From the human T2T-CHM13v2.0 reference genome, Homo sapiens, in the NCBI RefSeq assembly GCF_009914755.1, contig NC_060929.1: DNA of 64,000 bases, one strand, 5' to 3'. A program made the translations under genes and the position numbers. The notes below the pieces were generated by a model. The model searched no databases and was not told where the DNA came from. It saw only the letters and a list, made by a program, of their open reading frames with translations. Of the stretch, positions 56,405-64,000 are shown one piece after another (position 1 is the first letter of the stretch; each line of letters starts with the position of its first letter).

Positions 56405-57116
56405 TTTGTTAATATTGAGTGCTGGCAAACGTTGGAAAATGGGTACACCCATACAATGCTAGTGGGAATGTACATTTGTACAACCACTTTGAAGAGCAAT
56501 TTGGCAGCATGTACTAAATTAAAAGGTATATGATCCTATGATTGAGTAACCCCACTCCTGGCATTGCCTGTGCTAGAAAAACACAAACAATTGTACCAAG
56601 AGGTATTCATAAAGCTATCTGTTGCCACTTTGCTGTCAAATGCACTCCCTGCTCTGTTCATTGCTGGAAACTATATTCCCAGGATTCCTTGCCCACTGGC
56701 TTCTGGGCAGATTTGGCCAATGGGAGGCACTGGTGAAAAGCTAGAGGGAGGAAAAGAGAAACTAAGGTGTTTCTTCCCTTCTGTCCCAGAGCACCTTTCA
56801 CAGTCCTAGCTCCCAACACAGGGCCTGCCCTGACTTCTGTGCTCTGCCAACACCACTTCCTCCTAGGAGTGCTCTCCAGCTGTAGGCGGGGGTCACATCT
56901 TCCTGTTGTTCCTAGTCTCTAAATAGCCTCACCTTCCTACTTGGCTTCTCAAGTCTCTTATCCCCTTGGTGACCAATTCTCTGCATTAAATCCCCTCTGT
57001 TTGAAGTGCCTAAGAAGGTTTTCTGTTTTCCTGACTAGACCCTAACTGATAACAGTGTTTGTTTCAGCATTATTGGTAATGCTGAAATTAGCAAAAAGTT
57101 AGAAATATCTCAGATG
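56405..57116 (+). mobile_element. Ancient L1ME-like 3' relic (host of the LTR33-like element and the young L1; resumes at 63579)
   Basis: GCTAGTGGGAATGTACATTTGTACAACCACTTTG...; TTTCAGCATTATTGGTAAT... continues after the L1 as ...AGAATACTCTGCAGCAATT...AAGTTGCAGA. Confidence 0.6.
56615..57054 (+). mobile_element. LTR33-like ERVL solo LTR
   Basis: TTTGGCCAATGGGAGGCACTGG; ATTAAATCCCCTCTGTTTGAA...CCTGACTAGACCCTAACTGATA end. Confidence 0.65.
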
Positions 57117-58010
57117 GAAGATGGCAGAATAGGAACAGCTCCGGTCTACAGCTCCCACCGTGAGCGATGCAGAAGACGGTGATTTCTGCATTTCCATCTG
57201 AGGTACCGGGTTCATCTCACTAGGGAGTGCCAGACAGTGGGCGCAGGTCAGTGGGTGCACGCACCGTGCGCGAGCCGAAGCAGGGCGAGGCATTGCCTCA
57301 CTTGGGAAGCACAAGGGGTCAGGGAGTTCCCTTTCCGAATCAAAGAAAGGGGTGACGGACGCACCTGGAAAGTCAGGTCACTCCCACCCGAATATTGTGC
57401 TTTTTGGACCGGCGTAAAAAACGGCGCACCACGAGATTATATCCCGCACCTGGCTCGGAGGGTCCTACGCCCACGGAGTCTCGCTGATTGCTAGCACAGC
57501 AGTCTGAGATCAAACTGCAAGGCGGCAGCGAGGCTGGGGGAGGGGCGCCCCCCATTGCCCAGGCTTGCTTAGGTAAACAAAGCAGCTGGGAAGCTCGAAC
57601 TGGGTGGAGCCCACCACAGCTCAAGGAGGCCTGCCTGCCTCTGTAGGCTCCATCTCTGGGGGCAGGGCACAGACAAACAAAAAGACAGCAGTAACCTCTG
57701 CAGACTTAAATGTCGCTGTCTGACAGCTTTGAAGAGAGCAGTGGTTCTCCCAGCACGCAGCTGGAGATCTGAAAACGGGCAGACTGCCTCCTCAAGTGGG
57801 TCCCTGACCCCTGACCCCCAAGCAGCCTAACTGGGAGGCACCCCCCAGCAGGGGCACACTGACACCTCACATGGCAGGGTATTCCAACAGACCTGCAGCT
57901 GAGGGTCCTGTCTGTTAGAAGGAAAACTAACAAACAGAAAGGACATCCACACCAAAAACCCATCTGTACATCACCATCATCAAAGACCAAAAGTAGATAA
58001 AACCACAAAC
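57117..58010. promoter_or_regulatory. L1 5'UTR with internal sense promoter and antisense promoter
   Basis: Recognisable CpG-rich L1 5'UTR; promoter function is established for L1PA/L1Hs 5'UTRs but not shown for this copy. Confidence 0.7.
57373..57555 (-). pseudogene. ORF0: L1 ORF0, truncated at 60 of the usual 71 aa
   Basis: MGGAPPPASLPPCSLISDCCASNQRDSVGVGPSEPG...NIRVGVT* matches ORF0p; the next codon (normally CGA, Arg) is TGA. Confidence 0.85.
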
Positions 58011-59027
58011 ATGGGGAAAAAACAGAACAGAAAAACTGGAAACTCTAAAACGCAGAGCGCCTCTCTTCCTCCAAAGGAACGCAGTTCCTCACCAGCAACG
58101 GAACAAAGCTGGATGGAGAATGACTTTGACGAGCTGAGAGAAGAAGGCTTCAGACGATCAAATTACTCTGAGCTACGGGAGGACATTCAAACCAAAGGCA
58201 AAGAAGTTGAAAACTTTGAAAAAAATTTAGAAGACTGTATAACTAGAATAACCAATACAGAGAAGTGCTTAAAGGAGCTGATGGAGCTGAAAACCAAGGC
58301 TCAAGAACTACGTGAAGAATGCAGAAGCCTCAGGAGCCGATGAGATCAACTGGAAGAAAGGGTATCAGCGATGGAAGATGAAATGAATGAAATGAAGCGA
58401 GAAGGGAAGTTTAGAGAAAAAAGAATAAAAAGAAATGAGCAAAGCCTCCAAGAAATATGGGACTATGTGAAAAGACCAAATCTACGTCTGATTGGTGTAC
58501 CTGAAAGTGATGGGGAGAATGGAACCAAGTTGGAAAACACTCTGCAGGATATTATCCAGGAGAACTTCCCCAATCTAGCAAGGCAGGCCAACATTCAGAT
58601 TCAGGAAATACTGAGAATACCACAAAGATACTCCTCGAGAAGAGCAACTCCAAGACACATAATTGTCAGATTCACCAAAGTTGAAATGAAGGAAAAAATG
58701 TTAAGGGCAGCCAGAGAGAAAGGTCGGGTTACCCTCAAAGGGAAGCCCATCAGACTAACAGTGGATCTCTCGGCAGAAACCCTACAAGCCAGAAGAGAGT
58801 GGGGGCCAATATTCAACATTCTTAAAGAAAAGAATTTTCAACCCAGAATTTCATATCCAGCCAAACTAAGCTTCATAAGTGAAGGAGAAATAAAATACTT
58901 TACAGACAAGCAAATGCTGAGAGATTTTGTCACCACCAGGCCTGCCATAAAAGAGCTCCTGAAGGAAGCGCTAAACACGGAAAGGAACCACCGGTACCAG
59001 CCGCTGCAAAATCATGCCAAAATGTAA
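58011..59027 (+). pseudogene. ORF1: L1 ORF1p with a premature stop
   Basis: MGKKQNRKTGNSK...RSR*DQLEER...QNHAKM; in-frame TGA at 58341-58343 replaces Cys111. Confidence 0.95.
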
Positions 59028-59090
59028 AGACCATCGAGACTAGGAAGAAACTGCATCAACTAACAAGCAAAATCACCAGCTAACATCATA

Positions 59091-62000: not shown

Positions 62001-62916
62001 CCTAAAACCATAAAAACTCTAGAAGAAAACCTAGGCATTACCATTCAGGACATAGGCATGGGCAAGGACTTCATGTCCAAAACACCAAAAGCAATGGCAA
62101 CAAAAGCCAAAATTGACAAATGGGATCTAATTAAACTAAAGAGCTTCTGCACAGCAAAAGAAAGTACCATCAGAGTGAACAGGAAACCTACAAAATGGGA
62201 GAAAATTTTCACAACCTACTCATCTGACAAAGGGCTAATATCCAGAATCTACAATGAACTCAAACAAATTTACAAGAAAAAAACAAACAACCCCATCAAA
62301 AAGTGGGTGAAGGACATGAACAGACACTTCTCAAAAGAAGACATTTATGCAGCCAAAAAACACATGAAAAAAATGCTCATCATCACTGGCCATCAGAGAA
62401 ATGCAAATCAAAACCACAGTGAGATACCATCTCACACCAGTTAGAATGGCAATCATTAAAAAGTCAGGAAACAGGTGCTGGAGAGGATGTGGAGAAATAG
62501 GAACACTTTTACACTGTTGGTGGGACTGTAAACTAGTTCAACCATTGTGGAAGTCAGTGTGGCGATTCCTCAGGGATCTAGAACTAGAAATACCATTTGA
62601 CCCAGCCATCCCATTACTGGGTATATACCCAAAGGACTATAAATCTTGCTGCTATAAAGACAAATGCACACGTATGTTTATTGCGGCATTATTCACAATA
62701 GCAAAGACTTGGAACCAACCCAAATGTCCAACAATGATAGACTGGATTAAGAAAATGTGGCCCATATACACCATGGAATACTATGCAGCCATAAAAAATG
62801 ATGAGTTCATGTCCTTTGTAGGGACATGGATGAAATTGGAAATCATCATCCTCAGTAAACTATCACAAGAACAAAAAACCAAACACCGCATATTCTCACT
62901 CATAGGTGGGAATTGA
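59091..62916 (+). pseudogene. ORF2: L1 ORF2p (endonuclease, reverse transcriptase, Cys-rich domain), disabled
   Basis: MTGSNSHITILTLNVNGLN EN domain; TAG at 59766-59768; FADD RT motif in the 852-aa ORF; +1 frameshift in the A7 run at 62367-62373; ends RIFSLIGGN. Confidence 0.95.
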
Positions 62917-63144
62917 ACAATGAGATCACATGGACACAGGAAGGGGAACATCACACTCTGGGGACTGTGGTGGGGTGGGGGGAGGGGGGAGGGATAGCAT
63001 TGGGAGATATACCTAATGCTAGATGACGAGTTAGTGGGTGCAGCGCACCAGCATGGCACATGTATACATATGTAACTAACCTGCACAATGTGCACATGTA
63101 CCCTAAAACTTAAAGTATAATAAAAAAAAAAGGAAAAAAAAAAA

Positions 63145-63562
63145 GAAAGTGACCATGAAAAATAAATTCGCTGGGGAGGGGGGCTCCATGCTGGTGTGGC
63201 CAAGGCTGAGAGCTCTCCCTTCTCTGTTACAAAAGGAGATAAGCAAGTGTTAGCATTGCCTTAAGTCCACACTGGCATCTCCCAGACCTTCTCCAGGGAC
63301 AGAAGCAGGAGTAAGTTTCTCATCCCATGGGCGACCAGGGCCATCTCCTCCCACCAGTGGCCCCCACTCACAGGGAGCTGGCAATGCCCTACCTGCCTGT
63401 TCTCCAGATGGAGAAACAGGCTCTGAGAGTTCAGAGGTCTTGCCCAAAGTCATTGATTTTGATGATTAAAAAGAATAAACACAGTGTTTCCTGAGTAGCA
63501 GTGATTGTTATGCCTTGCTATTTTAATAAAGATTCTATTTTCGTAAAAAAAAAAAAAAGAAA
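63145..63562 (+). other. L1 3'-transduced genomic segment with a second poly(A) tail
   Basis: About 400 bp of non-L1 sequence between the L1 A tail and a second A tail (63545-63562); AATAAA at 63525-63530; lies inside the TSD. Confidence 0.92.
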
Positions 63563-64000
63563 AGAAATATCTCAGATGTTCACTATTTGAGAAATAGTAC
63601 AGAATACTCTGCAGCAATTTTTTAAGTTGACATAAATCTGCAACATGGAATATGTACTGATGGAAAAAAGAAAGTTGCAGACCAGTATGTCCTGTAGTGT
63701 TTGATTAATGTTTATTCTTTAAAAATAATAAACCAATTGCATATGTATTCTATAGTTTTATATAATCTTTAGGTTTATATATAAATTGATACATTTACAG
63801 AAATATCTGGAAGGATTTATGGCAAACTAATTGCATTATTTCCTTTGTCAGGTACCTAAGATAGAAGTGGAGTAGGAGAACCCTAACTTTACTATATTGT
63901 TTAAAGTTTTTACAAGAAAAGTATATTTATGTATTACTTATGTAAGTAAAAATTAATTTCAAGGTAGATAGCAAAACAAAAAAAAAGACATAGAATGGGA

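What the first reader, a model, noticed from the sequence alone, without database searches (positions are those of the whole stretch)
57101..63578. Full-length L1PA2-like insertion carrying a ~400 bp 3' transduction inside a perfect 16-bp TSD
Seen: AGAAATATCTCAGATG occurs at 57101-57116, immediately before the L1. It recurs only at 63563-63578, not after the L1's own A tail (63122-63144). Between the two tails is 400 bp of non-L1 DNA (63145-63544), ending with AATAAA (63525-63530) 14 nt before a second poly(A). The empty site TT/AGAA resembles the L1 endonuclease consensus, and the old L1M host sequence appears to rejoin across the insertion. Established: read-through of the weak L1 poly(A) signal mobilises 3' flanking DNA. 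Inference: this segment was copied from another locus and tags the source element and its lineage. Its first bases (~AAGAAAGTGACCATG) may be the source element's own TSD.
Basis: partly seen in the sequence, partly recalled or inferred. Interest (0 to 1): 0.8.

Follow-up and report, generated by a model that had tools for sequence, protein, structure and literature searches.

The report
Old L1 carrying a PTGIS tag
A long-dead L1 jumping gene on human chromosome 5 carried along 400 bases copied from just downstream of the PTGIS gene on chromosome 20, which is a well-known and ordinary by-product of how L1 elements copy themselves.

Summary
A 6,005-bp L1 with its own A-tail (A10GGA11) is followed by 400 bp of non-L1 DNA, AATAAA, a second poly(A), and then the second copy of a perfect 16-bp target-site duplication.

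The 400-bp tag has exactly one other copy in this genome, chr20:51273547-51273946, minus strand, 392/400 identical. There it runs on into genomic DNA with no poly(A). It lies 3,590-3,989 nt downstream of the PTGIS (prostacyclin synthase) stop codon, on the gene's strand.

No L1 lies at that site. No young L1 lies within 100 kb upstream or 40 kb downstream. No sibling carries the tag.

Best reading (about 0.8): an ordinary L1 3' transduction, roughly 4-18 Myr old. The source L1 sat in sense orientation in the PTGIS 3' region and was never fixed. The chr20 boundary reads T/AGAA, an endonuclease-type site like the chr5 target TT/AGAA.

Main rival (about 0.1): reverse transcriptase began on a PTGIS mRNA and switched template to an L1 RNA.

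Ape orthologues could not be examined. The mechanism is known and the interest is low.

The parts
57101..57116 (+). 5' copy of the 16-bp target-site duplication AGAAATATCTCAGATG, preceded by tt (target tt/AGAA)
   Evidence: exact pair, the only 2 matches in the window, 0 of 100 shuffles with 2 or more.
57117..57117 (+). One extra G between the duplication and the first L1 base. It does not match the L1 5' end of six other copies.
   Evidence: alignment. That it may be an untemplated, cap-derived G is inference; a comparable untemplated G is described in PMC6425141 (passages).
57118..63121 (+). L1 body, near full length (57117-63121 = 6,005 bp), lacking about 10-13 nt of the 5' end. The 5'UTR runs to 58010. 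The ORF1 frame is 58011-59027, with a premature stop at codon 111 (58341). The ORF2 frame starts at 59091, with a premature stop at codon 226 (59766) and a frameshift between 62368 and 62442; the tail frame ends at 62916. The 3'UTR runs to 63121.
   Evidence: Nearest scored genomic copies are 97% identical over the 5'UTR (40 of 5,766 candidates scored) and 98% over ORF2-3'UTR (40 of 6,097 scored).
63122..63144 (+). The L1's own A-tail, A10 GG A11, now internal to the insertion
   Evidence: The last A (63144) also matches chr20, so the boundary is ambiguous by 1 nt.
63145..63544 (+). 400-bp tag copied from chr20:51273547-51273946 (minus strand). This is the stretch 3,590-3,989 nt downstream of the PTGIS stop codon. 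Identity is 392/400.
   Evidence: PTGIS was identified from the exons upstream.
63525..63530 (+). AATAAA poly(A) signal used for the composite transcript. Three earlier hexamers in the tag (63161, 63465, 63474) were passed over.
63545..63562 (+). Second poly(A) tail (A14 G A3). It is absent from chr20, where the sequence continues ataacattg...
63563..63578 (+). 3' copy of the 16-bp target-site duplication

Best explanation
This is an ordinary L1 3' transduction that is now a fossil.

Proposed sequence of events:
1. An active L1 of L1PA2 or late L1PA3 age once sat on chr20 in the 3' region of PTGIS. It lay in the gene's orientation, with its A-tail abutting ...T/AGAAAGTGACC.
2. Transcription from the L1 promoter ran through the L1's own weak poly(A) signal and three further hexamers.
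3. The transcript was cleaved 14-15 nt after the AATAAA that lies 3,989 nt downstream of the PTGIS stop codon. This is probably PTGIS's own poly(A) site.
4. The L1 machinery nicked chr5 at TT/AGAA and primed on the new poly(A) tail. It copied tag, internal A-tail and nearly the whole L1, leaving a 16-bp duplication.
5. The source L1 never reached fixation. A sense-oriented L1 in a 3'UTR is likely to be harmful, so only the empty chr20 allele survives.
6. The chr5 copy later decayed: one stop in ORF1, one stop and one frameshift in ORF2.

Shown here: the composite anatomy, the single donor locus, the absence of a poly(A) at the donor, and the absence of an L1 at the donor.

Inferred: that a source L1 ever existed there, its loss, and the dating.
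For: 1. One duplication encloses L1 + A-tail + tag + poly(A), and no duplication follows the first A-tail.
2. The tag has one other copy in 3.1 Gb, 392/400 identical. That copy is collinear over all 400 nt and continues without poly(A).
3. The tag ends 14-15 nt after AATAAA.
4. The chr20 boundary reads T/AGAA, the same core as the chr5 target TT/AGAA. Only 16 of 3,989 positions in the stretch between the PTGIS stop and the tag end have T/A[AG]AA. After allowing for the way A's blur the boundary, 75 of 3,977 random start points (1.9%) would look like this.
5. No other retrocopy of this PTGIS end exists in the genome. PTGIS RNA therefore does not seem prone to mobilisation in trans, whereas L1-driven read-through needs no PTGIS expression.
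6. Base rates favour transduction. About 15% of L1 insertions carry 3' transductions (PMC10883270, passage, citing Szak 2002). In contrast, mobilisation of cellular mRNAs is rare: 22 germline processed-pseudogene polymorphisms against 7,265 germline TE polymorphisms, and 1 somatic pseudogene insertion against 1,495 somatic L1 insertions (PMC12016303, passages).
7. Dating is coherent. The tag is 2.0% diverged from its donor. The L1 is 2-3% from its nearest scored copies. It carries three disabling lesions.
Against: 1. No L1 abuts the tag on chr20. blastn of the L1 body against chr20:51233547-51373946 found only 7 old fragments, 68-83% identical and at most 512 bp. The defining relation, tag equals the 3' flank of a source L1, is therefore not observed.
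2. The donor stretch lies on the PTGIS strand and ends where a roughly 4-kb 3'UTR would end. An mRNA-derived chimera predicts this automatically. Transduction predicts it only if the source happened to land in a 3'UTR in sense orientation.
3. No sibling carries the tag.
4. The -2 position of the putative chr20 nick site is A, not the consensus T.
5. Six of the 8 tag differences are transversions. This is unexplained under any model.
Confidence: 0.8

Rival explanations
1. Template-switch chimera that mimics a transduction. Target-primed reverse transcription at chr5 began on the poly(A) tail of a PTGIS mRNA. After 400 nt the L1 reverse transcriptase jumped to the poly(A) tail of an L1 RNA and copied it almost to its 5' end. 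No L1 ever sat in PTGIS.
For: - The donor lies on the PTGIS strand, 3,590-3,989 nt after the stop codon, and ends at an AATAAA-defined cleavage site.
- No L1 is at or near the donor.
- The jump point is A-rich (ccaaaaatAGAAAG), which could give microhomology with a poly(A) acceptor.
- Same-orientation chimeras inside one duplication, attributed to template switching or RNA ligation, are documented for U6/L1. The same study reports 452 Alu/L1 chimeras (PMC13174262, passages and section 12).
Against: - The order is the reverse of the documented chimeras, where the L1 is the 3' part and the other RNA lies at its 5' side (PMC13174262).
- It needs two rare steps: initiation on a cellular mRNA (22 of 7,265 germline events, 1 of 1,495 somatic; PMC12016303) and then a jump.
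- PTGIS has no other retrocopy of its 3' end.
- The boundary has an endonuclease-type T/AGAA, expected in only 1.9% of random jump points.
- That the tag end is the annotated PTGIS mRNA end rests on my recalled mRNA length of about 5.6 kb, not on a call.
Confidence: 0.1
2. Read-through from an L1 lying farther upstream in PTGIS, for example in an intron. The intervening RNA would have been removed by splicing to a cryptic acceptor (aaaaatag/AAAGTG) before retrotransposition.
For: An AG dinucleotide lies exactly at the tag boundary on chr20. Spliced L1-containing templates are documented (PMC6425141, passages; PMC5860796, title and abstract in the listing).
Against: - No young L1 lies anywhere in the 100 kb upstream on chr20, so this model also needs a lost element and gains nothing.
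- The stretch before the AG (cactcactgccaaaaatag) is a poor pyrimidine tract.
- The donor site would have to fall directly after the A-tail.
Confidence: 0.04
3. Two independent events: a 5'-truncated 400-bp PTGIS retrocopy inserted first, and an L1 later landed exactly at its 5' junction. Alternatively, a DNA-level duplication or an assembly artefact.
For: None specific. It is listed only because both parts separately look like ordinary retrocopies.
Against: - The L1 has no duplication of its own. The bases after its A-tail (GAAAGTGACC) do not repeat the bases before its 5' end (CTCAGATG).
- A single perfect 16-bp duplication encloses both parts.
- The second poly(A), at a cleavage site, excludes DNA-level copying.
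- The structure is internally coherent in a gapless assembly.
Confidence: 0.02

Closest known systems
L1 3' transduction (Moran 1999; Goodier 2000; Pickeral 2000; Szak 2003). These papers were recalled or seen only as citations in PMC5470649 and PMC1687206.
   Same: An L1 with its own A-tail, unique downstream DNA, a downstream AATAAA, a second poly(A), one duplication around everything, and a donor locus that lacks the poly(A).
   Different: The source L1 is missing at the donor locus in this assembly. The donor DNA is the far 3' region of a protein-coding gene, on the gene's strand.
Transductions whose source L1 is not in the reference genome (non-reference or polymorphic donors). Examples are the Solyom 2012 'orphan transduction' title, seen in the reference list of PMC4862182, and the non-reference family members in PMC6425141.
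   Same: The tag maps to a locus that is empty in the assembly examined.
   Different: Those cases are young, and the donor can be found in other people. Here the event is about 2% diverged, so the donor allele has probably been lost from the species altogether. Also, the L1 body is retained here, so this is not an 'orphan'.
Template-switch or RNA-ligation chimeric retrocopies: U6/L1, U3/L1, Alu/L1 (Buzdin 2002/2003, recalled; Law and Burns 2026, PMC13174262, read in part).
   Same: Two RNA-derived parts in the same orientation, one duplication, one endonuclease-type target.
   Different: In the known chimeras the L1 is the 3' part and is usually 5'-truncated, with the partner lying 5' of it. 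Here a near-full-length L1 with its A-tail is the 5' part, and the non-L1 part is 3'.
5'-truncated processed pseudogene
   Same: The tag taken alone (the last 400 nt before a gene's poly(A) site, followed by poly(A)) looks like a severely truncated PTGIS retrocopy.
   Different: It has no duplication of its own at its 5' side, because it is fused to an L1 A-tail. RefSeq annotates no gene or pseudogene in the window (hub note in the finding).

Membership tests
L1 3' transduction | L1 3' end with its own A-tail, followed directly by non-L1, non-repetitive DNA | tested here: met
   A10GGA11 at 63122-63144, then 400 bp with only one other genomic copy.
L1 3' transduction | The extra DNA ends in a poly(A) tail placed 10-30 nt after a poly(A) signal | tested here: met
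   AATAAA at 63525-63530; poly(A) starts at 63545.
L1 3' transduction | The target-site duplication encloses L1 plus extra DNA, not the L1 alone, at an endonuclease-type site | tested here: met
   Perfect 16-bp pair at 57101 and 63563, 0 of 100 shuffles; target tt/AGAA.
L1 3' transduction | The extra DNA matches a unique locus elsewhere that continues without the poly(A) | tested here: met
   chr20:51273547-51273946(-), 392/400; continues ataacattg....
L1 3' transduction | At that locus the DNA is, or was, the immediate 3' flank of a same-orientation source L1 | tested here: inconclusive
   No L1 at the boundary, and none younger than 83% identity within 100 kb upstream or 40 kb downstream in this one haploid assembly. 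The boundary does read T/AGAA, with a 1.9% chance expectation. A lost allele cannot be seen here.
L1 3' transduction | The orthologous empty chr5 site in outgroup species shows one copy of the duplication and neither part | not testable with these tools
L1PA2 subfamily | Subfamily-diagnostic positions and 5'UTR form | tested here: inconclusive
   The 5'UTR aligns end to end without a large indel to the nearest copies at 97%. ORF2-3'UTR aligns at 98%. The 3'UTR reads GATGAC-GAG-TTAG; by my recollection this is the pre-L1HS state. No repeat library was available to separate L1PA2 from young L1PA3.
Template-switch chimeric retrocopy (U6/L1, Alu/L1 type) | The partner RNA lies 5' of a usually truncated L1 3' part, and one poly(A) lies at the 3' end | tested here: not met
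   Here the L1 is the 5' part and near full length, there are two poly(A) tracts, and the non-L1 part is 3'. The reference anatomy comes from PMC13174262.
Template-switch chimeric retrocopy (U6/L1, Alu/L1 type) | The non-L1 part corresponds to a mature cellular RNA end | tested here: inconclusive
   The tag ends 3,989 nt after the PTGIS stop codon on the gene's strand at an AATAAA site. That this is the annotated mRNA end rests on recall only.

The most novel reading that the evidence does not exclude
The element may not be a transduction at all. It may be a 'reverse-order' chimera: L1 reverse transcriptase started on a PTGIS mRNA tail at the chr5 nick, copied 400 nt, then jumped onto the poly(A) tail of its own L1 RNA and copied it to near full length. 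If such events exist, some share of catalogued 'parentless' 3' transductions that end at gene poly(A) sites would be mRNA/L1 template-switch products. Tags of that kind would not mark source L1 loci.
Probability: 0.1. Interest if true: 0.45.

Novelty: new member of a known kind. Interest (0 to 1): 0.2.

Why it matters
It matters little beyond bookkeeping. It is one more fixed L1 with a 3' transduction, a mechanism established since 1999-2000.

Two modest points are worth keeping:
- The tag is the only surviving trace of an active L1 allele that probably sat in sense orientation in the PTGIS 3' region and was lost. It illustrates that source elements of old transductions need not survive.
- A donor that ends at a gene's own poly(A) site cannot be told apart from an mRNA/L1 template-switch chimera on anatomy alone. 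Anyone using tags to count source loci should keep this caveat in mind.

There is no evidence of any effect on a gene at the chr5 site, where none is annotated in the window.

Tried and rejected
- Classic papers: Szak 2003, Buzdin 2003, Pickeral 2000, Macfarlane 2013, Solyom 2012 and Tubio 2014 could not be read by DOI, PubMed id or PMC id. Statements about them are recalled or taken from citing papers. Their supplementary catalogues may already list this element.
- Print record of this element: a search for PTGIS together with transduction, LINE-1 or retrocopy listed 15 of 37 papers. All 15 had 0 occurrences of PTGIS. PTGIS had 0 occurrences in PMC13174262 and PMC9311842.
- PTGIS 3'UTR length: a search for it found nothing usable. 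All 12 listed papers had 0 occurrences of '3 UTR'.
- L1M host: blastn of the flanks against the L1 body gave nothing. This test is too weak to judge the claim.
- Nearby or intronic source L1 on chr20: rejected.
- Nested independent insertions: rejected, because the L1 alone has no duplication.
- Base-rate survey: I tried to learn how often donors of L1PA2-age transductions lack an L1.
  - A smaller fetch of 10 elements and a script showed 1 clear no-transduction case (chrX).
  - The same run showed a few possible short extra segments between A-tail and duplication: chr15 about 56 nt, chr8 and chr1 unclear.
  - In 4 of the 10 elements the L1 3' end was not found by my simple anchor.
  - The tags were too short to map and n was too small, so nothing was concluded.
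- Closer sibling by L1 body similarity: the best non-self hits were 97% and 98%, but only 40 of 5,766 and 40 of 6,097 candidates were scored. A closer sibling cannot be excluded.

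
Full report
**Observation.**
- The 16-mer AGAAATATCTCAGATG occurs at 57101-57116 and 63563-63578 and nowhere else in the window, even with 2 mismatches allowed. The shuffle mean was 0.08, and 0 of 100 shuffles gave two matches (also family D12).
- The neighbouring bases differ, so the duplication is exactly 16 bp. 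The empty site reads tt/AGAA.
- The L1 ends at 63121 and is followed by A10GGA11 (63122-63144).
- Then come 400 bp (63145-63544), with AATAAA at 63525-63530, a second tail A14GA3 (63545-63562), and the second duplication copy.

**The L1.**
- The element is 6,005 bp long.
- Aligned with six other full-length copies from the same genome, it lacks about 10-13 nt of the 5' end and has one non-matching G at 57117. A single untemplated G at the 5' end of an L1-mediated insertion has been taken as a sign of a capped template (PMC6425141, passage). Here that is only an inference.
- ORF1 has one in-frame stop, at codon 111 (58341). ORF2 has one in-frame stop, at codon 226 (59766), and a frameshift between 62368 and 62442.
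- The nearest scored copies are 97% identical over the 5'UTR with no large indel (40 of 5,766 candidates scored). They are 98% identical over ORF2-3'UTR (40 of 6,097 scored).
- By my recollection, the 3'UTR trinucleotide GAG (in GATGACGAGTTAG) and the short 5'UTR form point to L1PA2 or young L1PA3, not L1HS. No repeat library was available to test this.

**Where the tag came from.**
- A whole-genome search with the 400 bp found two places, both scored: the tag itself and chr20:51273547-51273946, minus strand, 98% identical over 1-400. A 25-nt pattern from the tag start also has only these two places.
- The alignment shows identity starting at (A)GAAAGTG and stopping at TTTTCGT(A). On chr20 the sequence runs on as ataacattgtcaag... 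with no poly(A).
- There are 8 differences in 400, of which 2 are transitions and 6 transversions.
- With a recalled neutral rate of about 1-1.2e-9 per site per year, 2.0% between the copies gives roughly 8-10 Myr. The Poisson range for 8 events is wide, about 4-18 Myr. This is inference.

**What the donor locus is.**
- Stop-to-stop frames upstream of the donor, on the same strand, match human prostacyclin synthase in the PDB. L003:6694-6924(-) hits 2iag_A at E=4.2e-32.
- L003:3593-3784(-) hits 2iag_A at E=2.5e-27, identical from FVFLVLV through the C-terminal ...VPVRYRIRP.
- The stop codon is at L003:3590-3592, so the tag is the stretch 3,590-3,989 nt downstream of the PTGIS stop codon. I recall a PTGIS mRNA of about 5.6 kb. 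That would make this the last 400 nt of the 3'UTR and the cleavage site the gene's own poly(A) site. No call confirms this (the search found nothing useful).

**No source L1.**
- Directly upstream of the tag, chr20 reads ...cactcactgccaaaaat/AGAAAGTGACC, preceded by two Alu-like elements recognised by eye. There is no L1.
- blastn of the L1 body against chr20:51233547-51373946 covers 100 kb upstream in the gene's sense and 40 kb downstream. It gave 7 short matches of 68-83% identity and at most 512 bp, which are old fragments.
- No second element carries the tag.

**Weighing the two serious models.** Under transduction, a source L1 once abutted the tag and has been lost. Under template switching, reverse transcription began on a PTGIS mRNA and jumped to an L1 RNA tail.

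Points for the template-switch rival:
- The donor is on the gene's strand.
- It ends at a strong poly(A) site.
- It has no L1.

Points for transduction:
- The chr20 boundary reads T/AGAA, the same core as the chr5 target. T/A[AG]AA occurs at 16 of 3,989 positions in that stretch. After allowing for the A-tail blurring the boundary, 75 of 3,977 random start points (1.9%), and 31 of 1,494 in the last 1.5 kb, would appear so.
- PTGIS has no other retrocopy of its 3' end.
- Transductions are common, at about 15% of L1 insertions (PMC10883270, passage). About 25% is quoted in the abstract of PMC13009371 (listing).
- Mobilisation of cellular mRNAs is rare: 22 against 7,265 germline events and 1 against 1,495 somatic events (PMC12016303, passages).
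- Documented chimeras have the opposite order, with the partner 5' of the L1 (PMC13174262).
- A sense-oriented L1 inside a 3'UTR would plausibly be selected against, which makes its loss unsurprising. This is established knowledge that I recall from Han, Szak and Boeke 2004, seen only as a citation.

I put transduction from a lost source at about 0.8 and the chimera at about 0.1. A spliced read-through from a distant L1 gets about 0.04; it also needs a lost L1. Two separate insertions or an artefact get about 0.02, because the L1 alone has no duplication.

- The 'old L1M host' was not verified. The flanks show no blastn similarity to the L1 body, which is a weak test.
- The idea that the first tag bases are the source's own duplication fits the T/AGAA boundary, but it needs a filled allele.
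- The tag does not lead to any lineage in this genome.

**Comparison and novelty.**
- The anatomy meets every testable criterion of an L1 3' transduction except the presence of the source, which is inconclusive in a single assembly.
- The mechanism has been known for 25 years, and catalogues of reference-genome transductions exist. I could not read them, so this element may already be listed. I found no paper that names PTGIS in this context.
- It is a new, or at least unlocated, member of a known kind, of low interest. Its only twist is that a gene-end donor makes it formally ambiguous with an mRNA/L1 chimera.

Noticed in passing
window 63178-63434 versus L002 (chr20): Six of the 8 differences between the tag and its donor are transversions, and 6 of the 8 lie in the first 140 nt. 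With the usual excess of transitions this is unexpected (roughly p=0.02 by my own binomial estimate). No outgroup was available to polarise the changes.
   Followed up: partly
window 57117: A single G sits between the duplication and the first L1-matching base. The L1 lacks about 10-13 nt that six other full-length copies have at their 5' ends.
   Followed up: partly
window 63161, 63465, 63474: Three further AATAAA or ATTAAA hexamers inside the tag were not used. Cleavage happened only after the fourth, at 63525.
   Followed up: no
L003:7292-8323 (chr20, between the last two PTGIS coding exons found): About 1 kb of low-complexity repeat gives a stop-free frame of 343 codons on the minus strand, with HPSIHPSIH-like periodicity. 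This looks like a short-unit tandem repeat in the intron.
   Followed up: no
L002:1965-2700, minus strand (chr20, directly upstream of the tag donor): Two Alu-like elements, in antisense orientation relative to PTGIS, lie in the presumed 3'UTR just before the donor stretch. They were recognised by eye, not by a repeat library.
   Followed up: no
L031 (chr15:79740618-79742218) and L026 (chr8:26678088-26679688): Two other full-length young L1s seem to have short extra segments between their A-tail and the best duplication match: about 56 nt on chr15, unclear on chr8. These may be short 3' transductions.
   Followed up: no
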